Positions 1 through 24,643 of a stretch of DNA of 56,701 nucleotides are shown piece after piece; positions within the stretch are counted from its first letter, which is position 1, and every line of letters starts with the position of its first letter. Source of the DNA: an uncultured Gammaproteobacteria bacterium (GTDB lineage Bacteria; Patescibacteriota; Patescibacteriia; Magasanikbacterales; UBA922); NCBI GenBank assembly GCA_964592785.1, contig CAZQHU010000006.1:1-56701 (forward strand), written 5' to 3'. Under the pieces are notes generated by a model that was given only the letters and a program-made list of their open reading frames with translations, was not told the DNA's origin and ran no database searches. The position numbers and the translations under genes are program-made.

Positions 1-908
<908 letters not shown>

Positions 909-1301: not shown

Positions 1302-1574
1302 TCATCTAGCAAAAATTACTACACAATTTCCTACCCCTTCCGCAACATCCTCCACCAAGGGATGTTTTTTTAAATAATCCAGTACTTCCTTTCGCAACTT
1401 CCCTGTGCCAAAACCATAAATTATTCGTACCATGGTTGCTTTTTCTTGATAATTTTTATAAAGAAAAGACTCCAAATTTGCCAGCGCTTCCTCAACATAA
1501 AAACCATGCAAATCCAACTCTGGCATCATCGCGCCCAATTCAACTGCAAAAATTTTGGCTTCTTTGTCGTTCAT
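1302..1574 (-). CDS. Stand-alone Smr-domain protein
   Basis: ELDLHG motif and RIIYGFGTGKLR (Smr consensus IIHGxG); 90 aa. Confidence 0.85.
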   Translation of the reverse strand: MNDKEAKIFAVELGAMMPELDLHGFYVEEALANLESFLYKNYQEKATMVRIIYGFGTGKLRKEVLDYLKKHPLVEDVAEGVGNCVVIFAR

Positions 1575-1777
1575 AATCTACTATTTACTTTTAAAATCAT
1601 TATCCTTATAATAAATACATTAAAATAGTTTCTGAATGGCATTTATTACTTAAATAATATCATAAATAAACTAAATAATTAACTAGTTCGGATATAACTT
1701 GTTGTCTGAAATAGCAAAAAATCTTTTTAAGAATTAATTTTGGATTTTTTTATTTTGGATGCAAAAATTTTAAAAAT

Positions 1778-2389
1778 ATGGGCAACGAATTAACAAGTGC
1801 GCTTGTGCTGGGTCTAATCGGTGGGGTAATTCCGGGACCGGTTTTAACGGCCACATTTACCGAAATTTTACAGTCCGGTATTCCAAAAAGTATGCGGATA
1901 ATTTTATGGGCGATGTTTACTGAAACCGTCGTTGCCCTAATAAGTTTATTGGCACTTTCATCAATGAATTTTTCTGAGAGCTTTTTTCAAGGTCTTTCGA
2001 TAATCGGCGCCGCCATCCTAATTTGGATTTCGACTTCGATATGGAAAGTCCACAAAATTGATAATGAGGAAAAAGTCCATTTCAGTCTTGGAAAAATATC
2101 AGCGATGATAATGGCGAATGGGGTGTTGTGGACTTTCTGGATTACCGTATGTGTGCCAAAAGCGATATTACTTAGTGAAAAGGTGGCTTTTGGCAACTAT
2201 CTTTTTCTACTACTCGTCGAAATCGGATGGCTAATCTCAACTGTCATGGTTGCGGTGGTATTTTCACGATTCAGAAAAATTCTTTCTAATCCAAAGGTTG
2301 TGCCAATTATTTTTAAAATTTTTGCTCTGACATTCATGTATTTCGCTGTCGATATGGTTTATCGTAGCATCAAGTTTTTCCTGACCTAA
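1778..2389 (+). CDS. LysE-family translocator (cassette 1)
   Basis: N-terminal GLIGGVIPGP motif, about six hydrophobic helices, 203 aa. Confidence 0.8.
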   Translation: MGNELTSALVLGLIGGVIPGPVLTATFTEILQSGIPKSMRIILWAMFTETVVALISLLALSSMNFSESFFQGLSIIGAAILIWISTSIWKVHKIDNEEKVHFSLGKISAMIMANGVLWTFWITVCVPKAILLSEKVAFGNYLFLLLVEIGWLISTVMVAVVFSRFRKILSNPKVVPIIFKIFALTFMYFAVDMVYRSIKFFLT

Positions 2390-2441
2390 AAAAATAAAAA
2401 AATCCAAAATTAATAATAAAGAGGAAAGATTTTTCGCTACA

Positions 2442-2595
2442 TCAGACAACACCGAATATGAGGTTCAAAAAATTTGCGTCATTTAATAATCAGCGGAGTG
2501 CAAATTTTTCTCAACCCAAATTTTTGCCCTTTTTCTCTATTGATATATAATAGGGAGGCGGGCAAAAACTTCTCATATTCGGATACGTTATGTGA
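2442..2595 (+). repeat. attC-like site 1
   Basis: TCAGACAAC-ACC-GAATATGAG ... CTCATATTC-GG-ATAC-GTTATGTGA, with two internal hairpins (AAAAATTTGC/GCAAATTTTT and TTTTTGCCC/GGGCAAAAA). Confidence 0.7.
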
Positions 2596-2646
2596 AATAT
2601 TTTTATTTCTACCAATAAATACAATAATAAAGAATAATTTTATTTT

Positions 2647-3162
2647 ATGCCGATAGACCAAAACACAACAGTCCAAGTCATAACCACTACTCAAATTATT
2701 GGCATAGGTGGAGTCTCAGCGATAGCTGGAAGTTTTTTTACACTGGCAGGCATAGGTTTAAAATCATTTTTTGAAGCAAAAGAAAACAAAAAAACAAGAT
2801 TGTTTGAAGCCAGAAAAAATGCTTACTCAAAATTAATAGGTCATTTAAACAATTCTTTTGCAAAATATGAATTTACGGTAGCAAATTATGACCCAGAAAC
2901 AATTTTAAAATCCCTTACAGCATATTCTATTAATTTAGATTATGAGTTTGCCGAGGCATTACTTTTTAGTAGCAATAAAGTAATGCTAAAAATAGAAGAA
3001 TACAGAAAAAAAATATATAGTTTAAAAAGTGCTGTTTTAGCAGATGCACATGAACAAAAATTACAAGTAACTTTTCACAAAAGAGTAGAAGAATCCCAAC
3101 AAACTCATAATGTTGCAAAAGAATTAATCAAAATGATGCGCGAAGAATTGGAAATAAAATAA
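2647..3162 (+). CDS. Hypothetical protein with N-terminal TM helix and helical C-terminus (cassette 2)
   Basis: 171-aa ORF; hydrophobic IIGIGGVSAIAGSFFTLAGIGL; very AT-rich. Confidence 0.7.
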   Translation: MPIDQNTTVQVITTTQIIGIGGVSAIAGSFFTLAGIGLKSFFEAKENKKTRLFEARKNAYSKLIGHLNNSFAKYEFTVANYDPETILKSLTAYSINLDYEFAEALLFSSNKVMLKIEEYRKKIYSLKSAVLADAHEQKLQVTFHKRVEESQQTHNVAKELIKMMREELEIK

Positions 3163-3209
3163 AATTATAAATTGATCAAATTAAATTTATTAATAGAAAT
3201 AAAAATACA

Positions 3210-3827
3210 TCACATAACACGGTATATCTGGCTACACTTTAAAAAATATTTGTAATTTATTTAATAAAAATATATGACAAAAAAATTTCTTCCAATCTTA
3301 CTACTATTTCCATTATTACTAACTGGTTGTAGTTTAAAAACAAACGAGGTAGAAAATGATACCAAGGCGTTTTCGTTAAAACAAGAATGTTTTAAATACA
3401 AAGAAGGCATACAAAAAGAATTTGATAATTTCAACACAAAACAACAACCCCAAGAAAGAGCTGACAATGATGGTTCTACTAGAAAATGTTATGAAAACAA
3501 GGAATTGAAAGAAATTTTTTATAGTAATAAACTCAATTCATGTGCACAAGTAGAAGTCCAAAAAACTTATTGCAACACACCTGATATGAAGTCTTATGGG
3601 GTTTCTTATGAGTACAACATACTTTCTAATGTTCTTACTGGAGAAACACTAGAATATATAAAAACAATTTCTCGTGGGGAAGGTTTTGAAACCCCACAAA
3701 GAACAAAAGAAATAATTGATAGCTATAGATAAATTACAAATATTTTTAGTTCCGCCCATATTTCGCGCACACAAGATAATAATTTAAGGAGTGCGCGAAA
3801 CATCAGATATACACGAACGTTCAGTGA
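3210..3827 (+). repeat. attC-like site 2, split by an inserted gene
   Basis: Left arm TCACATAAC-ACG-GTATATCTG (3210-3230); right arm CAGATATAC-A-CG-AAC-GTTCAGTGA (3804-3827). Confidence 0.6.
3274..3732 (+). CDS. Putative lipoprotein (inside attC-like site 2)
   Basis: Signal peptide with lipobox LLLTG-C; 152 aa with several Cys. Confidence 0.75.
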   Translation: MTKKFLPILLLFPLLLTGCSLKTNEVENDTKAFSLKQECFKYKEGIQKEFDNFNTKQQPQERADNDGSTRKCYENKELKEIFYSNKLNSCAQVEVQKTYCNTPDMKSYGVSYEYNILSNVLTGETLEYIKTISRGEGFETPQRTKEIIDSYR

Positions 3828-3842
3828 CATACCCAAAAAACC

Positions 3843-3870
3843 AAAAATACTCTCTGATGAGAGTATTTTT
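3843..3870 (-). terminator. Intrinsic terminator downstream of tRNA-Leu
   Basis: AAAAATACTCTC-TGAT-GAGAGTATTTTT. Confidence 0.7.
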
Positions 3871-3876
3871 ATTATG

Positions 3877-3958
3877 TGCTGGCGGAGAGACTCGAACTCT
3901 CAATCCTTGCGGAACGTGCTCCTAAGGCACGCGTGTATACCAATTCCACCACGCCAGC
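3877..3958 (-). tRNA. tRNA-Leu(TAG)
   Basis: GCTGGCG acceptor, anticodon arm CGTGC-CT TAG GA-GCACG, long variable arm, TTCGA T-loop; CCA not encoded. Confidence 0.96.
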
Positions 3959-16324: not shown

Positions 16325-17272
16325 ATGTCTAAAACCTTATCCAATTATTTGACTGAATTTCTTGAATACCTGGAGATCGAACGCAATCGCAGTGACAAAA
16401 CTTTACGCAATTATGATTTTTATTTAAAAAGATTTACTGGCTGGCTGGGAGGAGACAAAAACCCAGAAGCTATAGACGCAGAAAAAATTCGACAATATCG
16501 TCTCTGGCTCAATCGTCTGGTAGATAATCATGGTGAACCTCTGAAAAAAAATACTCAAAACTACCATCTTATTGCTCTGCGCTCTTTTTTGAAATATTTA
16601 GCCAAACGCGATGTCAAAACTTTGGCTTCAGAAAAAATTGAATTGATGAAAATGCCAGATCGTGATGTTTCTTTTTTGGAAGGTGGCGATCTTAGCCGAC
16701 TATTGGAAGCGCCTATAAAAGAAAATGTTGATAACCAACTTATTCGTTACCGCGACAAAGCCATCTTGGAAATGCTTTTTTCCACTGGACTACGCGTCTC
16801 TGAATTGGTTGGCCTGAAGAAAGATAATCTAAATTTGAATCGTGAAGAATTTACTGTCACTGGTAAGGGGCGCAAAGCCCGAGTAGTTTTCCTTTCCGAA
16901 CAAGCCAAATACTGGCTAAAAAAATATTTGGGAGTCCGCCAAGATCCCAATCCTTTTTTATTTATTTCTCACGATTTACGCAATAGCAAAGGTAAAAAAG
17001 AAGTGACCGATCAACCACTAACAACCCGTTCAGTGGAAAGAATCGTTCGCAAATATGCACGTAGCGCCGGTATCACCAAAGCTGTCACCCCCCACACTCT
17101 ACGCCATTCCTATGCCACTGATTTATTACAAAATGGTGCAGACATTCGAAGTGTCCAAACTATGCTGGGCCACAGCTCCATCACAACCACCCAAATTTAT
17201 ACCCATATTACTGATAAAGAATTGAGAAATATTTACAAAAAATTTCATGGGAAAAATAGAGGAAATAATTGA
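16325..17272 (+). CDS. XerC/XerD-like tyrosine recombinase
   Basis: SAM-like N-terminal domain; TGLRVSEL, GKGRKAR, HTLRHSYAT and LGHSSITTTQIY catalytic motifs. Confidence 0.93.
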   Translation: MSKTLSNYLTEFLEYLEIERNRSDKTLRNYDFYLKRFTGWLGGDKNPEAIDAEKIRQYRLWLNRLVDNHGEPLKKNTQNYHLIALRSFLKYLAKRDVKTLASEKIELMKMPDRDVSFLEGGDLSRLLEAPIKENVDNQLIRYRDKAILEMLFSTGLRVSELVGLKKDNLNLNREEFTVTGKGRKARVVFLSEQAKYWLKKYLGVRQDPNPFLFISHDLRNSKGKKEVTDQPLTTRSVERIVRKYARSAGITKAVTPHTLRHSYATDLLQNGADIRSVQTMLGHSSITTTQIYTHITDKELRNIYKKFHGKNRGNN

Positions 17273-17338: not shown

Positions 17339-17410
17339 GGCCCCGTAGTTCAATGGATAGAATAGAAGCCTTCTAAGCTTTAGATCTTGGTTCGATTCCA
17401 AGCGGGGTCA
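17339..17410 (+). tRNA. tRNA-Arg(TCT)
   Basis: GGCCCCG/CGGGGTC acceptor; GAAGC-CT TCT AA-GCTTT anticodon arm; promoter TTGACA-17-TAATAT at 17269-17297. Confidence 0.96.
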
Positions 17411-17436
17411 CGAAGATAATTCTTAATATATAATCT

Positions 17437-18348: not shown

Positions 18349-18846
18349 CTAAAACTTCAAAAAATCCGGCATGCCTGTATCACCACCCATAGGATCATTA
18401 TAAAAAGTCCGAGTATCATCCTCTATTTCAAAATTGAAATTGGCATAAAACCCGCTCGGAGCTTCGGAAATGGTGGCTTGTCTGAGATAACGAACGACAA
18501 AAATACTAATACTAAAAGCTGTGATAGTGATAGCCACACCCAAGACTGCTTGCCAAATAACTTTTTTACCCTGGGTAATTTTTTCTTCACTGCCACCAGA
18601 AAGCAAAATCAAATACCCAGCATAAACCAAATAGGCCAAGAATACTACTCCCAAGGTACCCAGGATGACCTGAATAGTGTAAGCGGCAATCAAACGAGGA
18701 TCATTGGGAGTACCGAGATCAGCTCCCTGCTCACCAGTGAGAGCCCCCAGCTGGGTATAAACATCTACTGCCAAAACCGGCAAAGACCAAATGCCTGTCA
18801 AAAGTACAAAAATGGCAATCAAAAATAATTTTTTGATTTTTGTCAT
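18349..18846 (-). CDS. VirB2/TrbC-like pilin
   Basis: Signal peptide plus two-TM core VYAGYLILLSGGSEEKITQGKK..AVLG. Confidence 0.8.
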   Translation of the reverse strand: MTKIKKLFLIAIFVLLTGIWSLPVLAVDVYTQLGALTGEQGADLGTPNDPRLIAAYTIQVILGTLGVVFLAYLVYAGYLILLSGGSEEKITQGKKVIWQAVLGVAITITAFSISIFVVRYLRQATISEAPSGFYANFNFEIEDDTRTFYNDPMGGDTGMPDFLKF

Positions 18847-18861
18847 ATAAAATTATTATTG

Positions 18862-19248
18862 TCAACGAAAAGCTGCATCTCTAAAACCCTGAACAATGAA
18901 ATAAGTGATCCCATAGGATGCCAAAATTATTATGAGCCCCACTATGGCCGGGCGAATAATACTAAGAGCTTTATTGGCTTTTTCTTCATTGCCACGAGCT
19001 GTCAAAAGCATATAACCTCCATAAACTACTAACACCAAAAAAACTATTCCTACGGTTTCTAAAATAATTTGAATAAATGAAGCTATTCTGGCCTGCAAAG
19101 GAATTTCTGAATTTATCTCAGCCACGCTACCGGCAGTGCCCACTTGTTGCATTATTTCAGATTTGGAAGCAGCTAGAGTTAAAACCGGAGACAAAAAACT
19201 CAAAAACAATGCTATTAAAATAATAATTTTGGAACTGCGCAAACTCAT
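18862..19248 (-). CDS. VirB2/TrbC-like pilin
   Basis: VYGGYMLLTARGNEEKANKA..AIVGLIIILASYGI core. Confidence 0.82.
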   Translation of the reverse strand: MSLRSSKIIILIALFLSFLSPVLTLAASKSEIMQQVGTAGSVAEINSEIPLQARIASFIQIILETVGIVFLVLVVYGGYMLLTARGNEEKANKALSIIRPAIVGLIIILASYGITYFIVQGFRDAAFR

Positions 19249-19249
19249 A

Positions 19250-19627
19250 TTATTTTATGGAACGAGCCAAGATCGCCGGCACCACAAAGCTAGTGATGCT
19301 ATAGGCAGCCAAGGTAATAATCAGGCCGACAATCGCCGCGATAATAATTTTCCTGGCCTTGTCTATCTGATCTTCTTGTCCTCGGGCGGTCATCCAGAGA
19401 TAACCCGCATAGACCATGAGGATGAGAAAAATCACTCCCACAAAAGACAAAGCCGCTTTGATAATCGTCCCCAAAGTTTCAGCCAAAGTTAGTTCATCAG
19501 CATCAGCAAAACCAGCTTTACCAGCAGTATCTCTCGCCAAATCTGAACCCAAATCAATAGCCAAAGTGGAAAGCAAAGGAGTAAACAAAATGAAAGCCAC
19601 AATCACCACGTAAAATATTTTTTTCAT
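19250..19627 (-). CDS. VirB2/TrbC-like pilin
   Basis: VYAGYLWMTARGQEDQIDKARKII core. Confidence 0.85.
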   Translation of the reverse strand: MKKIFYVVIVAFILFTPLLSTLAIDLGSDLARDTAGKAGFADADELTLAETLGTIIKAALSFVGVIFLILMVYAGYLWMTARGQEDQIDKARKIIIAAIVGLIITLAAYSITSFVVPAILARSIK

Positions 19628-19633
19628 AAAAAT

Positions 19634-19951
19634 TTATTTAAACTGTGTAGTCACAAGCACAGTGATGGCATAAGCACTAACTACGATCACGAGACCGATG
19701 ACTGCCGCGATAATAATTTTCCTGGCCTTGTCTATCTGATCTTCCTCACCCCGAGCTGTCATCCAGAGATAACCCGCATAGACCATGAGGATGAGAAAAA
19801 TCAAACCTACCAAAGTTAGAGCAGTGCTAATAACTGATCCTATTAAAACTGAAATGTCGGCATTATCCTTCACACCTGCAGCGTCAGCAGTTTTGCCCAG
19901 CTCTCGACCGGCCTGACCAATCCCGGCCTGAGCCAATAAAATTTTTGACAT
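19634..19951 (-). CDS. VirB2/TrbC-like pilin
   Basis: VYAGYLWMTARGEEDQIDKARKII core; start trimmed to MSKILL. Confidence 0.85.
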   Translation of the reverse strand: MSKILLAQAGIGQAGRELGKTADAAGVKDNADISVLIGSVISTALTLVGLIFLILMVYAGYLWMTARGEEDQIDKARKIIIAAVIGLVIVVSAYAITVLVTTQFK

Positions 19952-19971
19952 ATTTTTATAACAATTAATTT

Positions 19972-20631
19972 TTATCGGCAATAATCCTTGGCGCAATTAT
20001 CATTACCCACTTCATCATCAGTATAGCGGGAAGCATTTTCATAAAATAACCAGCAACCAGCTTCTGCTTGGTCAGTACAACCTCTTTTTTCCCGTCCTTG
20101 CAAACGACAAACATTTTCCGTATTAATATAACAAGCTTTGTTGATGGCAATATTAATATCCCCCGCGCTTTCTACCCATTCCACGCAACAACCTTTGATA
20201 ACTTCCTCTGACAAGTCTGGGGTAGTATCACTCACACTAGCAGCTTGACCTTCGACAATCCTCGTCACTACCAAATTGGTGATAGCATAGCCAGAAACAA
20301 TAATCACAAGACCAATCACTGCCATGGTGATAGTATCTCTGGAACTCTTTATTCGATCCTCCTCACCTCGAGCTGTCATCCAACGGAAACCAGCATAAAC
20401 CATGAGAATAAAAAATATTGTACCCACAAAAGACAGAGCGATCTTAATCCAAAAACCAATCATTTCTGGTACGCTCTGGGGTAGATTGGTAGTAGCTATG
20501 CCAGTCGGACCCAGAGTCTGAGTAAGCACCCCGGTCGCATCATTGATAGTCTTGGCGGCAAAAGCTGGTATCGCAAACAAAGTAAAAACTAATATTACTG
20601 ACAATAAACAAAATTTACAAAATTTCACCAT
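19972..20631 (-). CDS. Pilin with Cys-rich C-terminal domain
   Basis: YAGFRWMTARGEED core followed by a Cys-rich tail. Confidence 0.82.
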   Translation of the reverse strand: MVKFCKFCLLSVILVFTLFAIPAFAAKTINDATGVLTQTLGPTGIATTNLPQSVPEMIGFWIKIALSFVGTIFFILMVYAGFRWMTARGEEDRIKSSRDTITMAVIGLVIIVSGYAITNLVVTRIVEGQAASVSDTTPDLSEEVIKGCCVEWVESAGDINIAINKACYINTENVCRLQGREKRGCTDQAEAGCWLFYENASRYTDDEVGNDNCAKDYCR

Positions 20632-20634
20632 AAC

Positions 20635-21552
20635 TTATTCATTTTTAGGCAAGCAAGATCGACGTGAAGAACCATTGAAACAATAAAAATTACTTTCACA
20701 ATCACTATTTAGCGTACATTCAGCACATTCCAAACCACTTTCACAATATCCATTAACACAATGTCCACTTTGACACTGTGAATGGGCAGAACATTTGTCG
20801 CCATTTGTACAAATCAATCCGGTACAACCTATCAAACTTGTACTTGGTAACCCTTCTGGACAAGAAGCACCTTTTTGACATGTTCCCTTTTTACATATTG
20901 AATCAATACAGTCAGCATTACTGTCACAAGACGCATTAATATTTGACTCTAGAGGCGCAGTAGGTTCAGTTTCTCCCCCACCCAAACAACTACTAAAATA
21001 GGTTTTTTCATCATTAGATAAAATATCACTATTTGAAACACCCAAAAGACACTGACTCACACAACCATCAAAATCACTATAAAAAGCTTGAAACACCTCC
21101 ACATCCATACTAGTGCAAGCATTATCACAACACTGTTCATCAGCTATCGTTCCACTTCCACCTCCTCCAGCATTCCCACCTCCACCCCCTGTCGTGGCTG
21201 TCCCACCCACACTACTAAACACAAAGTTGGTGATAGCATAGGCCGCGAGAATGATAATCAATCCAATAACTGCAGCAATCACAGTGTCCATACCTTGTTT
21301 GGCCTGTTCTTCTTTGCCATGGGCAGTCATCCAGAGAAACCCGCCAAAAATCATCAGAGCAAAAAAAATGACGCCAATAAGCGATAGCGCCGTACCTATT
21401 ACATTACCAATAAGTGTAGGAAGTTTAAGTCCAGTATTCAAACCGGCTGTTCTAGCAGTTTCCTCCAGACCATAGGCCGCCCAAGTAGTGGTAAATAAAA
21501 CCAAAGAAAAAATCACCACCAAAAAACCAGCGAAGAAAAATTTTTTGGACAT
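20635..21552 (-). CDS. Pilin with Gly linker and large Cys-rich repeat domain
   Basis: GGFLWMTAHGKEEQ core, TTGGGGGNAGGGGSG linker, CxxxxxCxxxxC-type repeats. Confidence 0.82.
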   Translation of the reverse strand: MSKKFFFAGFLVVIFSLVLFTTTWAAYGLEETARTAGLNTGLKLPTLIGNVIGTALSLIGVIFFALMIFGGFLWMTAHGKEEQAKQGMDTVIAAVIGLIIILAAYAITNFVFSSVGGTATTGGGGGNAGGGGSGTIADEQCCDNACTSMDVEVFQAFYSDFDGCVSQCLLGVSNSDILSNDEKTYFSSCLGGGETEPTAPLESNINASCDSNADCIDSICKKGTCQKGASCPEGLPSTSLIGCTGLICTNGDKCSAHSQCQSGHCVNGYCESGLECAECTLNSDCESNFYCFNGSSRRSCLPKNE

Positions 21553-21556
21553 AAGT

Positions 21557-22010
21557 TTATAAATTTATAATTTTTAATTTTAAATTTTTAAACAATCCCT
21601 AATTTTTAATTTTTAAACTATGTGTAATCTTGCTAAAAATCAAAGACAACTCATTCGCCTCTTTCCAAATTGTTCTCAATTCCACTTTAACTTCCGGATT
21701 AACTTCAGCCAAAAGTTCTATCCAATACTTAGTTTCTTGTATTTCTTTTCTAACAATATAAATCTTATTTTTAAAATCATTCCTGGAAACTCCAGCATTT
21801 GCTTCCCTATAATTCGCTCCCACACTTGTACTAGAACGAAGTAACTGATTAATTATATTTTGATTCAAAGCATGAAACTTTAAATTTTTAATTAGAGCAA
21901 TAACTTCCTTACTAAACTTCAAAGTACGTTCTTCCAAATCGTATTGCATAATTAAAAATTTTTTAATTCAAAATTGTTTAAAAATTAATAATTAATAATT
22001 AAAAATTAAA
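21557..22010. mobile_element. Heptamer-repeat inverted-repeat element carrying a four-helix-bundle gene
   Basis: Perfect 14-bp IR AATTTTTAAACAAT (21583-21596) / ATTGTTTAAAAATT (21973-21986) embedded in (T/A)AATTTT repeats. Confidence 0.6.
21599..21949 (-). CDS. Four-helix-bundle protein (23S rRNA IVP / Avd-like family)
   Basis: DLEERTLKFS, QLLRSSTSVGANYREA and ETKYWIELL motifs; 116 aa. Confidence 0.92.
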   Translation of the reverse strand: MQYDLEERTLKFSKEVIALIKNLKFHALNQNIINQLLRSSTSVGANYREANAGVSRNDFKNKIYIVRKEIQETKYWIELLAEVNPEVKVELRTIWKEANELSLIFSKITHSLKIKN

Positions 22011-22427
22011 CTAATCACTTATCTCATTATAAACATTCCCAGTGGTTGCTTGAAATAAATTCACCATTACAAAACGAGTGATACTATAGGCAGCCAAGAT
22101 TATCACCAAACCAATAACTGCTGAAAAAAGAATTTTTCTGGCACTGGAAGCGTTTTCTTCATTACCGCCGGCAGTCATCCATTTGAAACCGGCATAGATC
22201 ACGAGCACTACGGCCACAATACCGAGGAGTCCCAAAGCTACAGAAATTATCTGGGCTACCATATAGCGCACATCCTGATCCCCGAGACCAGTAGCCGCTC
22301 CATATTCTAGACCAAGATAAGGACCCGGATCAGTAGCCTCCACCTGAGCCAAGACTGGCAGAGCCAAGGTAAATAAACTAAAAGCCAAAGCCACTACACC
22401 GACGACGAACATTATTTTTTTTGACAT
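22011..22427 (-). CDS. VirB2/TrbC-like pilin
   Basis: IYAGFKWMTAGGNEENASSARKI core. Confidence 0.85.
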   Translation of the reverse strand: MSKKIMFVVGVVALAFSLFTLALPVLAQVEATDPGPYLGLEYGAATGLGDQDVRYMVAQIISVALGLLGIVAVVLVIYAGFKWMTAGGNEENASSARKILFSAVIGLVIILAAYSITRFVMVNLFQATTGNVYNEISD

Positions 22428-22436
22428 AGCAATTTA

Positions 22437-22555
22437 ATTAAAATTTACAATTTATAATTTACAAACAATCAACAATTCATCAATTATCAATTTTTAAATA
22501 TTGAAAATTGGTTCTTGAAAATTTTTTGGAAATTGTAAATTGAGAATTAAAAACT
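22437..22555. repeat. Gene-less heptamer inverted-repeat element
   Basis: AATTTACAATTT..AATTTACAAACAAT left arm and AAATTGTAAATT right arm. Confidence 0.5.
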
Positions 22556-22654
22556 TATAAAAACTTTCTTTCCTGCCCCACTTCGCATATACGAAATAGG
22601 GCAGGACAAGAAAAGTATATTTACTGTATTCCTCTCTGCTAGCAGAAAGAAATT

Positions 22655-23170
22655 TTAAAATGTTGGAATTTGACCAGCGCCTGAACCTGTAGCTTCTGCC
22701 AAACTGCGCAAAACAAAAAGAGTGATGGCCCAAGCTGACAAAATAATTGCCAAGCCAATAATACCAGCGAAGATCAATTTACGAGCTTCGGTGGTTTTTT
22801 CTTCGTTACCGCCAGCTGTCATCCATTTGAAGCCACCAGCCAAGACGATAACCACAGCGACCACACCCAAAAGACTCAAAGCCACATTGATAATTCTACC
22901 AACTGTAGTTCTTAGATCCTGGTTTCCTAATGTACCTTCAACTCCTTCATTAAATTCTGTAAGACCAAAAGGGTCTGCTGAATCTGTGCTACCTGTAGCT
23001 GCACAAACTCCGGATGAACTACACACTTCTCCGCTACCACAAGGACTGCTAGCACTACATGGAGCTCCTATTTCTGCCAAGGCCACTGTACCAATAGCCA
23101 AACTTAGAGCCAAAGCGAACACTATTACCAAAATGGTCTTATATTGTGCTAATTTTGTAAACCAATACAT
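22655..23170 (-). CDS. Pilin with N-terminal Cys module
   Basis: CSASSPCGSGEVCSSSGVC, then GGFKWMTAGGNEEK core. Confidence 0.85.
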   Translation of the reverse strand: MYWFTKLAQYKTILVIVFALALSLAIGTVALAEIGAPCSASSPCGSGEVCSSSGVCAATGSTDSADPFGLTEFNEGVEGTLGNQDLRTTVGRIINVALSLLGVVAVVIVLAGGFKWMTAGGNEEKTTEARKLIFAGIIGLAIILSAWAITLFVLRSLAEATGSGAGQIPTF

Positions 23171-23218
23171 GTTCTCACCCCCTTTCTGTTTAAAAATAAT
23201 TTTTTATAACTAAACATT

Positions 23219-23977
23219 TTAAGGACAAGTTTCACCTGGTCTCCAGACATATTGATTTGGATCATTGACATTCACTGGCGGATCATATTGTGAAGCTATA
23301 CCCTCACAATAAGCTCGTTCTTCTTCTACACAGCTTCGATCTTGTTTTGTTGGAAACAAGCATGAACCCAAAGTTTGTAGATCCGAACAGCTTCTTCCTT
23401 CTGGATAGAATAAAGCCAAATCTTTTGAAAAACACTCTGTTTCTGTCAGTTGTTCACATTTACTGGCATCACCGTCTTGTTGATACCAACAGGTCCCGGC
23501 TTTGGTATTTGTATCATCTTTTTCTTGTGTTGTGGGAGGTGAGGAAGCTGGCGGATTTTCCATTTTATAGCCAGCGGTAACTCCTTCCAAAAGCATGTTT
23601 AGTATAGCATAACTGGAAAAAATTACAAAGAGCCCAACAATCGCCCAAAGCATAGTCTGAGTGCCTTTTTTTACTTGTTCAGCATTACCAGCCGAAGTTA
23701 GCCACATAAATCCGCCGGCCACAAAAACCCCCAGAGAGAGCGCTCCCAAAACTCCCAAAACTCCACCAATAATATCCCCGATCAAATAACGAAAATCTTT
23801 ACGAGTGTCTATTTCTTTGCCATCAACTTTTATAATATTTGACCCCAAAGGATTTTCCAATTTTACTGAAGTGGGACTAAAGGTACTACCACTTTCAGTT
23901 GAAGTGGCCGCCAAAACCGCCTGACCAAAATTTAGAGATAGTAGAATAGCGATAATAAAAAATAATATTTTTTTCAT
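23219..23977 (-). CDS. Pilin with Cys-rich C-terminal domain
   Basis: GGFMWLTSAGNAEQVKKG core plus Cys-rich tail. Confidence 0.82.
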   Translation of the reverse strand: MKKILFFIIAILLSLNFGQAVLAATSTESGSTFSPTSVKLENPLGSNIIKVDGKEIDTRKDFRYLIGDIIGGVLGVLGALSLGVFVAGGFMWLTSAGNAEQVKKGTQTMLWAIVGLFVIFSSYAILNMLLEGVTAGYKMENPPASSPPTTQEKDDTNTKAGTCWYQQDGDASKCEQLTETECFSKDLALFYPEGRSCSDLQTLGSCLFPTKQDRSCVEEERAYCEGIASQYDPPVNVNDPNQYVWRPGETCP

Positions 23978-23992
23978 ATTTATCCTGTTAAA

Positions 23993-24643
23993 TTATTTTA
24001 TCACATTGAAATCACCAGCCACATTTAGGACATCTACCAGCATAAACTTGATCACGGCATAAGCAAAAAAGCAGATCAATAAGCCCACTACTGCTGCCAC
24101 CAAAATATCTCTGCCTTTCTTCACTTTCTCGGCATTACCAAAAGAAAGAATCATGGTAAAACCGCCATAAATGAAATAACCCAAAGCAAAAGTACCCAAA
24201 ATTCCAAAAAATCCTGAAGCAAAACGAATCACCAAAACCAAAAGATCATTCACATCCCTACAAGTGCCACTAAAAGCGCAATCAGGGAGAGCCACATTCT
24301 CTGCTCCTTCAGGTCTTCGATATTGTTCGACCATGAGTGACTGGGTTGGGGTAAAACATTTTTTTTGTTCACCATTCCAAATGCAAACCTTACTACCACT
24401 AGGATTATTTGGCCCACAAAGATCACCAGAAAGTTCATTACAAATGGTAGCATCAATCTTACTCAAACATTTATTTTTATTGGCAAGCCAAAAACATTCG
24501 TTTGATGCCCCACATTCACTATCTTTTAGATTCGCACAATCCGTTTGTTCCTCGGCCTTTACCACTGGAATCTCCAAAGTAAAAAAAATGCCCAACAAAA
24601 ACAAAATCAATCCTAACGTTTTAAAAAAATTTTTTCTAAACAT
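23993..24643 (-). CDS. Pilin with N-terminal Cys-rich repeats
   Basis: Two C-x6-C-x5/7-C-W repeats, then YGGFTMILSFGNAEKVKKG core. Confidence 0.82.
   Translation of the reverse strand: MFRKNFFKTLGLILFLLGIFFTLEIPVVKAEEQTDCANLKDSECGASNECFWLANKNKCLSKIDATICNELSGDLCGPNNPSGSKVCIWNGEQKKCFTPTQSLMVEQYRRPEGAENVALPDCAFSGTCRDVNDLLVLVIRFASGFFGILGTFALGYFIYGGFTMILSFGNAEKVKKGRDILVAAVVGLLICFFAYAVIKFMLVDVLNVAGDFNVIK

What the first reader, a model, noticed from the sequence alone, without database searches (positions are those of the whole stretch)
1701..3831. Integron-like cassette array with attC-type sites but no integrase, next to tRNA-Leu
Seen: three unrelated same-strand genes (LysE, TM protein, lipoprotein) are separated by sites with attC architecture: an AAC core, a 9-bp inner arm, a variable hairpin centre, the complementary arm with unpaired extra bases, and a GTT core. 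Each cassette's 5' core is the exact complement of its own 3' core (GTTGTCTGA/TCAGACAAC; GTTATGTGA/TCACATAAC), as expected for units that circularise. The divergent upstream gene, where intI would sit, is an Smr gene. Known: attC clusters without an integrase (CALINs) exist. Inference: a cassette-capture system in a CPR chromosome, served in trans or decayed; 1681-1709 may be attI-like.
Basis: partly seen in the sequence, partly recalled or inferred. Interest (0 to 1): 0.85.

Follow-up and report, generated by a model that had tools for sequence, protein, structure and literature searches.

The report
Integron-like gene cassette array in CPR bacterium
This stretch of a Candidatus Magasanikbacteria chromosome is a swappable gene-cassette array built like an integron, and it belongs to a widespread integron-like system of CPR bacteria, found in none of the papers searched, whose recombinase lacks the domain that defines classical integron integrases.

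Summary
Window 1685-3830 holds an attI-like site, a LysE cassette and a second cassette. The second cassette's recombination site (3207-3830) encloses the lipoprotein gene. Each site reads ACATCAnnnAAC-A-[11 bp]...[11 bp]-rAAC-GTTnnnTGAAAT. Each cassette's ends are complementary over 26-60 nt, not 9.

Conspecific strains with 98-99.7% identical flanks carry different cassettes between exactly the same two GTT triplets. The LysE cassette plus its site recurs at 100% and 93% identity in unrelated contexts.

The same sites occur in at least 47 species genomes, nearly all CPR, in co-oriented arrays of up to 11 sites in 8 kb. The inner stem shows compensatory changes.

A 267-286 aa tyrosine recombinase lies upstream of the arrays and points away from them (14/14 site-anchored loci; 61/66 model hits in recombinase-anchored loci). 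Its closest solved relative is the Vibrio integron integrase, but it lacks the IntI-specific additional domain.

The window has no such gene. Smr sits in its place, and the only tyrosine recombinase is a Xer 12.5 kb away.

Verdict: a real cassette array of a new integron variant, served in trans or recently orphaned. I found no description of it in the literature searched.

The parts
1302..1574 (-). Smr-domain gene (90 aa). It occupies the divergent position where the recombinase gene sits in related arrays. It is not part of the system elsewhere.
   Evidence: Pfam PF01713 E 2.4e-16. phmmer finds no Smr near arrays in L011-L057.
1685..1703 (+). attI-like site AGTTCGGATATAACTT|GTT, the fixed left boundary of the array. 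The crossover is at or within GTT 1701-1703.
   Evidence: The flank shared with L003-L007 ends at 1703/1713. It is similar to ATTCGGATAGAAACGA|GTT and related sites next to IntI-like genes in L013, L018, L056, L042 and L032.
1702..2587 (+). Cassette 1: 5' end TTGTCTGAAAT..., LysE ORF 1778-2389, and its own recombination site.
   Evidence: The same block is 100% identical in L001/L002 and 93% identical in L015, in other contexts. Pfam LysE.
1700..1756 (.). 5' arm of the cassette-1 inverted repeat. It pairs with 2391-2451.
   Evidence: the repeat finder I2+I3, 86-89% complementary.
2391..2451 (.). 3' arm of the cassette-1 inverted repeat.
2439..2598 (+). Site 1 (attC-like, type B). R'' ACATCAGACAAC 2439-2450; A 2451; L'' 2452-2462; two internal hairpins; L' 2572-2582; ATAC 2583-2586; R' GTTATGTGAAAT 2587-2598.
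   Evidence: Model R1 54.8 bits, E 5e-10. ssDNA fold -26 kcal/mol, z -5.2/-4.2. 77-87% identical to sites in Magasanik-, Moran- and Saccharibacteria loci.
2524..2551 (+). Promoter-like TTGCCC-16-TATAAT inside hairpin 2 of site 1, pointing into cassette 2.
   Evidence: Consensus scan, 10/12. The same boxes occur in related type-B sites. Function not shown.
2588..3819 (+). Cassette 2: 5' end TTATGTGAAAT..., ORF 2647-3162 (171 aa, membrane-like, no Pfam hit), and its site, which contains the lipoprotein gene.
2587..2625 (.). 5' arm of the cassette-2 inverted repeat. It pairs with 3180-3218.
   Evidence: the repeat finder I1, 39 nt, 85%.
3180..3218 (.). 3' arm of the cassette-2 inverted repeat.
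3207..3830 (+). Site 2 (attC-like, type A) split by an embedded gene. R'' ACATCACATAAC 3207-3218; A 3219; L'' 3220-3230; ...; CGCCCATAT motif and hairpin 3764-3797; L' 3804-3815; AAC 3816-3818; R' GTTCAGTGACAT 3819-3830.
   Evidence: Sequence. The right half is hit by R1. The same gene-in-site layout occurs in L003, L023, L046 and L051.
3242..3747 (+). Embedded unit inside hairpin 1 of site 2: 22-nt inverted repeat 3242-3263 / 3726-3747 around the lipoprotein ORF 3274-3732 (152 aa).
   Evidence: the repeat finder I4, 95%. Lipobox LLTGC visible in the translation.
3819..3830 (+). Distal boundary GTTCAGTGACAT, shared by all strain variants. Probably the original right half of attI.
   Evidence: L003 and L008 rejoin the window sequence here. 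No complementary partner exists in the window.
3876..3958 (-). tRNA-Leu(tag), a flanking gene.
   Evidence: ARAGORN, Rfam.
16325..17272 (+). The only tyrosine recombinase in the window: Xer-type, 315 aa, 30-33% identical to the IntI-like family. A candidate trans-acting enzyme, unproven.
   Evidence: Pfam PF00589 1.5e-46. NCBIfam XerC/XerD about 250 bits. tblastn and hmmsearch find nothing else. Alignment.

Best explanation
Window 1685-3830 is a gene-cassette array of an integron-like site-specific recombination system that is widespread in CPR/Patescibacteria. A cassette is one ORF followed by a structured site: R'' ACATCAnnnAAC, one A, an 11-bp L'' arm, a branched centre, the L' arm, four unpaired bases, then R' GTTnnnTGAAAT. 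Cassettes are cut and joined at G|TT of R'. Everything from TT onward therefore travels with the downstream cassette, and a cassette's 5' end is complementary to its own 3' R''. New cassettes enter at the attI-like site 1685-1703, so the original right half of that site now lies at the far end (3819-3830). In related genomes the enzyme is a 267-286 aa tyrosine recombinase encoded next to attI and pointing away from the array. Among solved structures it is closest to the Vibrio integron integrase and archaeal XerA, but it lacks the IntI-specific additional domain. In this genome that gene is not next to the array; Smr is there instead. I think the array is served in trans by a copy elsewhere in the genome or community, or was orphaned very recently. 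Shown: the site anatomy, the inner-stem covariation, exact cassette replacement between strains, reuse of one cassette in other contexts, and the polar linkage to the recombinase family. Inferred: folding of a single strand as substrate, the exact cleavage bond, the enzyme acting on this array, and any role of the long cassette-end stems and the promoter-like boxes inside the sites.
For: Cassette replacement: L003 shares flanks with the window at 98.1% and 99.7% identity, but has a different 1.5-kb array between the GTT at 1701-1703 and the GTT at 3819-3821. L004, L006 and L007 have another first cassette after the same attI. L008 has an extra GrpB cassette at the distal end. Cassette mobility: window 1702-2589 is 100% identical in L001/L002 behind unrelated sequence (...CCATCGCA|TTGTCTGA), and L001 ends at ...GGATACGTT. 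It is 93% identical in L015 in a third context. Family: a 30-nt site pattern hits 47 species genomes, nearly all CPR. Model R1 gives 116 hits in 50 loci; within each locus I checked they lie on one strand, with up to 11 hits per 8 kb. Structure: the L box is 97.9% paired, and 5 of 11 pairs show compensatory changes. Own-end rule: 23/32 against 7/48. End stems of 18-36 nt ungapped occur at 39 of 73 sites. The longest ORF is co-oriented with the site in 30/32 cassettes, and the median body is 750 bp. Recombinase linkage: 14/14 site-anchored loci have it upstream and divergent. In 80 loci fetched by the protein alone, 24/24 and 26/27 motif matches and 61/66 model hits are upstream on the opposite strand. 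Enzyme class: NCBIfam integron integrase 194-234 bits in two stretches, below the cutoff of 265. The best PDB sequence hit is IntI4 (2a3v, E 7e-43), with IntI4 residues 178-240 unmatched. The best fold hits are 2a3v chains, then XerA. attI.
Against: No recombinase of the family is in the 56.7-kb window, and no remnant of one. No circular junction of the LysE cassette was found in JGI metagenome contigs. I could not run IntegronFinder's attC model. The sites differ from canonical attC in several ways: 88-211 nt long, or more when a gene is embedded; conserved in sequence; 1 and 4 unpaired bases between the boxes; and very long cassette-end stems that integron theory does not predict. In L015 the first 8 nt of the LysE cassette differ from its own R'', which does not fit a simple G|TT exchange. 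Model R1 was built from sites found with my own pattern, so its hits in those loci are not independent. Only the recombinase-anchored loci are. No experiment exists.
Confidence: 0.8

Rival explanations
1. Orphaned relic: the array was built by such a system, but this lineage has lost the recombinase. Differences between strains predate the loss or come from homologous recombination through the conserved flanks. Nothing recombines at these sites today.
For: No IntI-like gene or remnant in the window, and Smr occupies its place. Arrays that start at attI-like sites without an adjacent recombinase also occur next to housekeeping genes in L043 and L049. No circle junction was found.
Against: At least three different arrays occur among strains whose flanks are 98-99.7% identical, each bounded exactly at the GTTs. 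The sites are intact: site 1 scores 54.8 bits, and the L boxes are fully paired. Only 56.7 kb of the genome was examined.
Confidence: 0.22
2. The sites are served by the housekeeping Xer recombinase (16325-17272) as double-stranded sites, like the dif modules of Acinetobacter plasmids, in which genes are flanked by inversely oriented Xer sites.
For: Xer is the only tyrosine recombinase in the window. Half-sites alternate in orientation around each unit. The IntI-like family is related to Xer (35% identity).
Against: By inspection of the sequence, the sites do not have two 11-bp arms around a 6-8 bp spacer. The 11-bp inner arms covary instead of keeping a fixed sequence, which points to pairing rather than sequence readout. 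Elsewhere the arrays are linked to the dedicated short recombinase; no window-type Xer (self-score 697 bits) lies near them in L011-L057. Xer in the window is 12.5 kb away with no site beside it.
Confidence: 0.08
3. The repeats are RNA features, not recombination sites: 5'UTR-3'UTR stems and intergenic structured RNAs that process or stabilise mRNAs of a variable island.
For: Cassette-specific end stems of 26-60 nt are kept by compensatory differences between cassette copies. There are promoter-like boxes inside the sites.
Against: No Rfam family matches even at E<=1. This reading does not explain replacement bounded at GTT, reuse of a cassette with its site elsewhere, or the polar linkage to a tyrosine recombinase. 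It may still hold as an added role of the end stems.
Confidence: 0.03
4. Each unit is a non-autonomous transposon (MITE-like) with terminal inverted repeats that carries one gene.
For: Every gene is flanked by its own long inverted repeat.
Against: There are no target-site duplications. Units abut one another through a shared structured site, always co-oriented at one locus, and start at one fixed site. No transposase is linked to them; a tyrosine recombinase is.
Confidence: 0.02

Closest known systems
Integrons (IntI integrase, attI, attC cassettes), especially sedentary chromosomal integrons and CALINs (attC clusters lacking an integrase)
   Same: A divergent tyrosine recombinase gene, then an attI-like site, then a co-oriented array of single-ORF cassettes (median body 750 bp). 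Sites have the R''-L''...L'-R' layout with AAC/GTT cores, and several cores match RYYYAAC/GTTRRRY, for example CCTAAC/GTTAGGC. Boundaries fit exchange at G|TT. A cassette's 5' end is complementary to its own R''. Cargo is mostly of unknown function with mixed GC (30-59%). The recombinase's nearest solved relative is VchIntIA. The window instance, with no integrase, corresponds to a CALIN that keeps its attI.
   Different: The recombinase is 267-286 aa and lacks the IntI-specific additional domain that Messier and Roy 2001 (as cited in PMC9668308) report as necessary for activity. The sites are conserved in sequence across phyla, are 88-211 nt with a three-way-junction centre, and can enclose a whole gene. 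The unpaired bases between the R and L boxes number 1 and 4; from my recollection of the VchIntIA-VCR structure, the extra bases lie on the opposite arm from canonical extrahelical bases. Cassette ends pair over 26-60 nt with a conserved 2x2 mismatch. The sites carry promoter-like boxes. The host phylum is not among those listed as integron-bearing in the 2021 review PMC8618304.
Xer recombinases with dif sites (archaeal XerA; single-Xer systems) and Xer-dependent dif modules of Acinetobacter plasmids
   Same: The recombinase family scores almost equally on the XerA model (NF040815, 218-234 bits), and XerA structures are the next-best fold matches. In dif modules too, genes are bracketed by inversely oriented sites.
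   Different: There is no 28-bp two-arm dif-like core. The sites are long imperfect palindromes with covarying stems. The arrays are polar and tied to a dedicated recombinase gene rather than to chromosome dimer resolution. The window's own Xer is a separate protein, 33% identical.

Membership tests
Integron (complete) | intI gene adjacent to the cassette array | tested here: not met
   The window has no tyrosine recombinase other than Xer at 16325-17272, and no remnant next to the array (tblastn; profile search of all ORFs). Smr occupies the position. In related loci an IntI-like gene is adjacent and divergent.
Integron (complete) | The integrase carries the IntI-specific additional domain around patch III | tested here: not met
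   The array-linked recombinases align to IntI4 (2a3v) in two stretches, with 20 residues opposite IntI4 residues 178-240. They stay below the TIGR02249 cutoff: 194-234 bits against 265. The AlphaFold model (pLDDT 86) has no extra helix between residues 178 and 196.
Integron (complete) | The integrase is nearest to IntI among tyrosine recombinases | tested here: met
   The best PDB sequence hit is IntI4, E 7e-43. The top three Foldseek hits are 2a3v chains, E 2e-18, followed by XerA. The C-terminus ends ...IKSPL(D).
Integron (complete) | attI site at the integrase-proximal end, where cassettes are inserted | tested here: met
   Window AGTTCGGATATAACTT|GTT is the fixed left boundary in all strain variants. 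It resembles the sites about 105-170 bp upstream of the recombinase start codon in L013, L018, L056, L042 and L032. Insertion activity was not tested.
attC site | Imperfect palindrome R''-L''-variable-L'-R' with conserved AAC and GTT triplets, folding as a hairpin | tested here: met
   Sequence. AAC/GTT are invariant in 22 sites and the L box is 97.9% paired with 5 covarying pairs. ssDNA folds have z -4 to -5.
attC site | Exchange at G|TT of R', so that a cassette begins with TTnnn complementary to its own R'' | tested here: met
   Variant boundaries fall at GTT on both sides. L001 has A|TTGTCTGA. Own-end rule: 23/32 against 7/48. One exception is L015.
attC site | Typical size of 57-141 bp, 5-6 nt unpaired central spacer, extrahelical bases read by IntI, and detection by the IntegronFinder attC covariance model | tested here: inconclusive
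   Sizes are 88-211 nt, or up to 1.4 kb with embedded genes. Spacers are 1 and 4 nt. The IntegronFinder model is not available here.
attC site | Recombined as a folded single (bottom) strand | not testable with these tools
   Only inferred, from stem covariation with variable sequence.
Integron cassette | One, usually promoterless, ORF per cassette, co-oriented with the array | tested here: met
   In 30 of 32 cassettes the longest ORF is forward, and one is empty. Promoterless status is uncertain because the sites carry promoter-like boxes.
CALIN | Two or more attC sites with no integron integrase nearby | tested here: met
   There are two sites (2439-2598, 3207-3830) and no integrase within the window. 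This holds only if these sites are accepted as attC.
Xer/dif and dif modules | 28-bp site with two 11-bp binding arms around a 6-8 bp central region | tested here: not met
   No such core is seen on inspection of the five half-sites. The conserved positions are ACATCAnnnAAC / GTTnnnTGAAAT and CnGnnTATnnG.
Any Rfam RNA family | Match to a curated covariance model | tested here: not met
   There are no hits in 1550-3900 at E<=1. Only rRNA and tRNAs reach gathering score in the window.

The most novel reading that the evidence does not exclude
CPR bacteria carry their own lineage of integrons. Its parts are a short IntI/XerA-like recombinase without the IntI additional domain, sequence-conserved three-way-junction attC sites that may each bring a promoter and can house a gene, and cassettes closed by long 5'/3' stems. 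The system would move genes between CPR phyla. It could be a living intermediate between Xer recombinases and classical integron integrases.
Probability: 0.55. Interest if true: 0.9.

Novelty: new variant of a known kind. Interest (0 to 1): 0.82.

Why it matters
Integrons are the classic gene-capture platforms of bacteria, but how they arose from Xer-like recombinases, and how cassettes are made, remain open questions. The additional domain of IntI is reported as necessary for attC recombination. Here a recombinase family without that domain is tied, in the canonical layout, to hundreds of cassette arrays with attC-like sites. This occurs in a phylum-level radiation that the 2021 review PMC8618304 does not list among integron hosts, and whose routes of gene exchange are poorly known. 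The family has thousands of members in public data, annotated only as XerD or 'tyrosine recombinase/integron integrase'. It offers defined substrates for testing what the additional domain is really needed for. It also points to a ready mechanism for strain-level gene turnover in ultrasmall symbiotic bacteria, and it explains why assemblies break at these loci. For this window, it means LysE, the membrane protein and the lipoprotein are accessory, exchangeable genes rather than core genome.

Tried and rejected
- Exact-protein look-ups of the TM and lipoprotein products found nothing on record.
- An exact search of JGI metagenome contigs for the circular junction of the LysE cassette found nothing. 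Assembled contigs are a poor place to find rare circles, so this is weak negative evidence.
- Rfam scans at gathering score and at E<=1 gave no family for the sites.
- Smr as a system component: rejected. It occurs only at this species' locus and near no other array.
- A degraded integrase next to the array: rejected by tblastn at E<=10 and by a profile search of all stop-to-stop ORFs.
- A dif-like reading (the XerD-arm resemblance of TTATGTGAAAT): dropped, because no matching second arm or spacer exists and the inner arms covary.
- A MITE reading: dropped for lack of target duplications and because of the polar arrays.
- A partner for the distal R' (TCACTGAAC): none in the window, so the tRNA-Leu side is flank, not a cassette.
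- A promoter in every site: only partly borne out. It is clear in type-B sites and many type-A sites, but not in the commonest type-A variant.
- The four literature searches on integron/attC/cassette terms crossed with CPR names returned only resistome or unrelated surveys, and two broader searches added nothing on CPR. Two integron reviews or papers and a 2025 paper on Patescibacteria gene exchange do not mention the system.
Full report
WHAT IS IN THE WINDOW. The window starts inside a 23S rRNA gene (1-908, minus strand). After it come an Smr-domain gene (1302-1574, minus), three plus-strand ORFs (LysE 1778-2389; a 171-aa ORF 2647-3162; a 152-aa lipoprotein-like ORF 3274-3732), tRNA-Leu (3876-3958, minus) and PNPase. 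RecA is 88% identical to Candidatus Magasanikbacteria proteins, so the host is a CPR bacterium.

The structure is richer than described. The top inverted repeats of the region each bracket one gene: 1700-1756 with 2391-2451 around LysE, 2587-2625 with 3180-3218 around the second ORF, and 3242-3263 with 3726-3747 around the lipoprotein ORF.

Between the first two genes lies a 160-nt site (2439-2598). It reads R'' ACATCAGACAAC, one A, an 11-bp arm CCGAATATGAG, two internal hairpins, the complementary arm CTCATATTCGG, four unpaired bases ATAC, then R' GTTATGTGAAAT. A second site has its left half at 3207-3230 and its right half at 3804-3830. The lipoprotein gene therefore sits inside that site, in the position of its first internal hairpin. 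The array is thus an attI-like start (1685-1703), two cassettes and one embedded gene.

THE SAME LOCUS IN OTHER STRAINS. Exact-protein look-ups of Smr and ribosomal protein S15 returned contigs of the same species from other samples.

- L003 matches the window at 98.1% on the PNPase side up to window position 3817, and at 99.7% on the Smr side up to 1703. The 2.1 kb between is replaced by a different 1.5-kb array: a cassette with a GC-rich reverse ORF, an empty 105-bp hairpin cassette, and a site enclosing another GC-rich ORF. The site grammar is the same.
- L004, L006 and L007 have yet another first cassette (a 577-aa ORF) after the identical attI-like sequence.
- L008 carries an additional GrpB cassette with a minimal 88-nt site just before the shared distal boundary GTTCAGTGACAT.

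All variants diverge and rejoin within the two GTT triplets. Cargo GC ranges from 30 to 59% in a 38% GC genome.

THE SAME CASSETTE ELSEWHERE. Window 1702-2589 is the LysE ORF plus its downstream site. It is 100% identical in two short contigs from unrelated samples, where it follows unrelated sequence (...CCATCGCA|TTGTCTGA) and where one contig ends at ...GGATACGTT. It is 93% identical in L015 in a third context. The mobile unit is therefore the gene plus its 3' site, exchanged at G|TT, as in integron cassettes. It is not the site plus a downstream gene.

THE SITE FAMILY. A 30-nt pattern derived from five sites hit 47 species-representative genomes. Nearly all are CPR lineages: Moran-, Uhr-, Magasanik-, Falkow-, Peregrini-, Peri-, Saccharibacteria and Absconditabacterales. 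A few bins carry other labels and may be mis-binned.

Two main site types exist, and one type-A sequence of about 115 nt is almost identical across phyla. In an alignment of 22 sites the AAC and GTT triplets are invariant. The 11-bp L box is 97.9% paired, and five of its pairs show compensatory changes; shifted controls pair at 14-40%.

A covariance model built from that alignment finds 116 sites in 50 loci. Within each locus I checked, the hits lie on one strand, with up to 11 sites per 8 kb. In the window it finds only the two sites described.

I also tested the own-end rule. When a cassette's 5' partner is chosen only on positions 13-26 beyond the GTT, the variable triplet next to GTT matches the cassette's own 3' R'' in 23 of 32 cassettes. 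Across a site it matches in 7 of 48. The 5' end always reads GAAAT and the 3' end ACATC, which gives a conserved 2x2 mismatch. End stems of 18-36 nt without gaps are found at 39 of 73 sites. In 30 of 32 cassettes the longest ORF is co-oriented with the site, and the median cassette body is 750 bp.

THE RECOMBINASE. In 14 of the 47 site-anchored loci a 267-286 aa tyrosine recombinase lies within the 8 kb. In all 14 it is upstream of the site in cassette orientation and transcribed away from it.

The converse test is independent of my site pattern. I fetched 80 metagenome loci by the protein alone; at least 576 relatives exist there. All 24 matches to the L-type motif, 26 of 27 matches to the R-type motif and 61 of 66 model hits lie upstream on the opposite strand. 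The five exceptions are in the most distant relatives.

The proteins keep the catalytic R-K-H-R-H-Y residues and end in ...IKSPL(D). On NCBIfam they score about equally on the integron-integrase model (194-234 bits, below its cutoff of 265, in two stretches) and on the archaeal XerA model. Their best solved relative by sequence is the Vibrio integron integrase IntI4, and only 20 residues stand opposite IntI4 residues 178-240. A confident model (pLDDT 86) has the IntI4 chains as its top three fold matches, then XerA, and shows no extra helix in that region.

So the enzyme is IntI-like but lacks the additional domain that defines IntI. That domain is also present in archaeal IntIs (PMC9668308). 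Public annotations call these proteins XerD or 'site-specific tyrosine recombinase/integron integrase'.

About 105-170 bp upstream of the recombinase start codon, the arrays begin at sites such as ATTCGGATAGAAACGA|GTT. The window's AGTTCGGATATAACTT|GTT resembles these.

THE WINDOW'S OWN SITUATION. No member or remnant of this family is in the 56.7 kb. The only tyrosine recombinase is a 315-aa Xer at 16325-17272, 30-35% identical to the family. Smr sits 127 bp from the attI-like GTT, where the recombinase gene would be, but it is not linked to arrays elsewhere. Arrays that start without an adjacent recombinase also occur in other genomes.

MECHANISM. The best-supported reading is integron-like cassette exchange. 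The recombinase pairs a folded site with attI or with another site and exchanges strands at G|TT. Cassettes leave as circles in which R'' meets its own R', and they enter at attI, which pushes the old attI right half (3819-3830) to the far end.

- Shown: the anatomy, the stem covariation, the exact replacement between strains, the cassette reuse, and the linkage to the recombinase.
- Inferred: single-strand folding as the substrate, the cleaved bond, and which enzyme serves this array.

I put 0.8 on the array being a product of this system. Within that, I put about 0.5-0.6 on present-day service in trans, against about 0.2 on a recently orphaned array.

RIVALS. Service by the housekeeping Xer on double-stranded sites cannot be excluded for this genome, but it lacks a dif-like core and any linkage elsewhere. 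A purely RNA-level role and a MITE-like nature fail to explain the replacement pattern and the recombinase linkage. An RNA role for the long end stems may still coexist with recombination.

COMPARISON AND NOVELTY. The system works like an integron and shares its layout. It fails two defining tests for canonical membership: an adjacent intI in the window, and the IntI additional domain anywhere in the family. Its sites also depart from canonical attC in length, sequence conservation, spacer geometry, embedded genes and cassette-long stems.

Patescibacteria are not among the phyla listed as integron hosts in the 2021 review (PMC8618304). Six full-text searches found no description of this system (with 53 and 76). 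I rate it a new variant of a known kind.

LIMITS. I could not run IntegronFinder. I had only 56.7 kb of the genome. Model E-values are rough. There is no experimental evidence. My literature check covers only the held library.

Noticed in passing
window 1700-1756/2391-2451 and 2587-2625/3180-3218; also 39 of 73 sites in L003-L057: Every cassette's 5' and 3' ends are complementary over 18-60 nt beyond the core, with a conserved 2x2 mismatch (5' ...GAAAT against 3' ACATC...). Canonical integron cassettes share only about 7 nt. The function is unknown: it could be the stem of an excised single-stranded circle, or a UTR-UTR stem in the mRNA.
   Followed up: partly
window 3242-3747 inside site 3207-3830; L003 6330-7040; L023, L046, L051: Whole genes sit inside the first internal hairpin of a site. 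In several loci the embedded gene is reverse-oriented and flanked by a conserved inverted repeat, GCCCTTTTTTGAAATTTTTT. This suggests a second kind of insertion point.
   Followed up: partly
window 2524-2551; related sites in L015, L018, L034, L036 and many type-A sites: There are promoter-like boxes (TTGCCC-16-TATAAT; TTGCnn-17/18-TATTAT) inside hairpin 2 of the sites, pointing into the next cassette. If functional, distal cassettes would not depend on a single promoter at attI.
   Followed up: partly
L013 3980-4150; L015, L034, L036, L038 just after the listed sites: A third, GC-rich site type has AAT/ATT instead of AAC/GTT cores. It follows tiny empty hairpin cassettes of the form GTTnnGCAAAATCGCTTCGCTCTTTTGCnnAAT.
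   Followed up: no
L011, L014, L017, L022, L026, L032, L037, L042, L054: An almost identical type-A site of about 115 nt occurs in genomes assigned to different CPR phyla and in a few non-CPR bins. This implies cross-phylum cassette flow, a common cassette source, or mis-binning.
   Followed up: no
window 1-908 (-): The 5' part of 23S rRNA spans 908 nt but covers only Rfam model positions 1-645. The roughly 260 extra nt may be an insertion of the kind common in CPR rRNA genes.
   Followed up: no
window 18349-24643 (-): About nine tandem paralogous small membrane proteins share ...FLILMVYAGYLWMTARGEE... They look like TrbC/VirB2-type pilins of a type IV secretion or conjugation system.
   Followed up: no
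window 16325-17272 (+), next to tRNA-Arg 17339-17411: A Xer-type tyrosine recombinase (315 aa) is conserved at the same place in L008. It is the only candidate in the window for a trans-acting enzyme.
   Followed up: partly
L001 1-26 and L002 1-51: In two other samples the LysE cassette abuts ...CTTCGTCTATCCATCGCA|TT. This is an attI-like sequence with A instead of G before TT. On the opposite strand an ATG spanning the junction opens a reading frame, MRWIDEVLKNIEEKSEN.
   Followed up: no
proteins P0001-P0120: Most contigs that carry the IntI-like gene are only 1-3 kb long. This suggests assemblies break at these variable, repeat-rich arrays, so the arrays are under-represented in MAGs.
   Followed up: no
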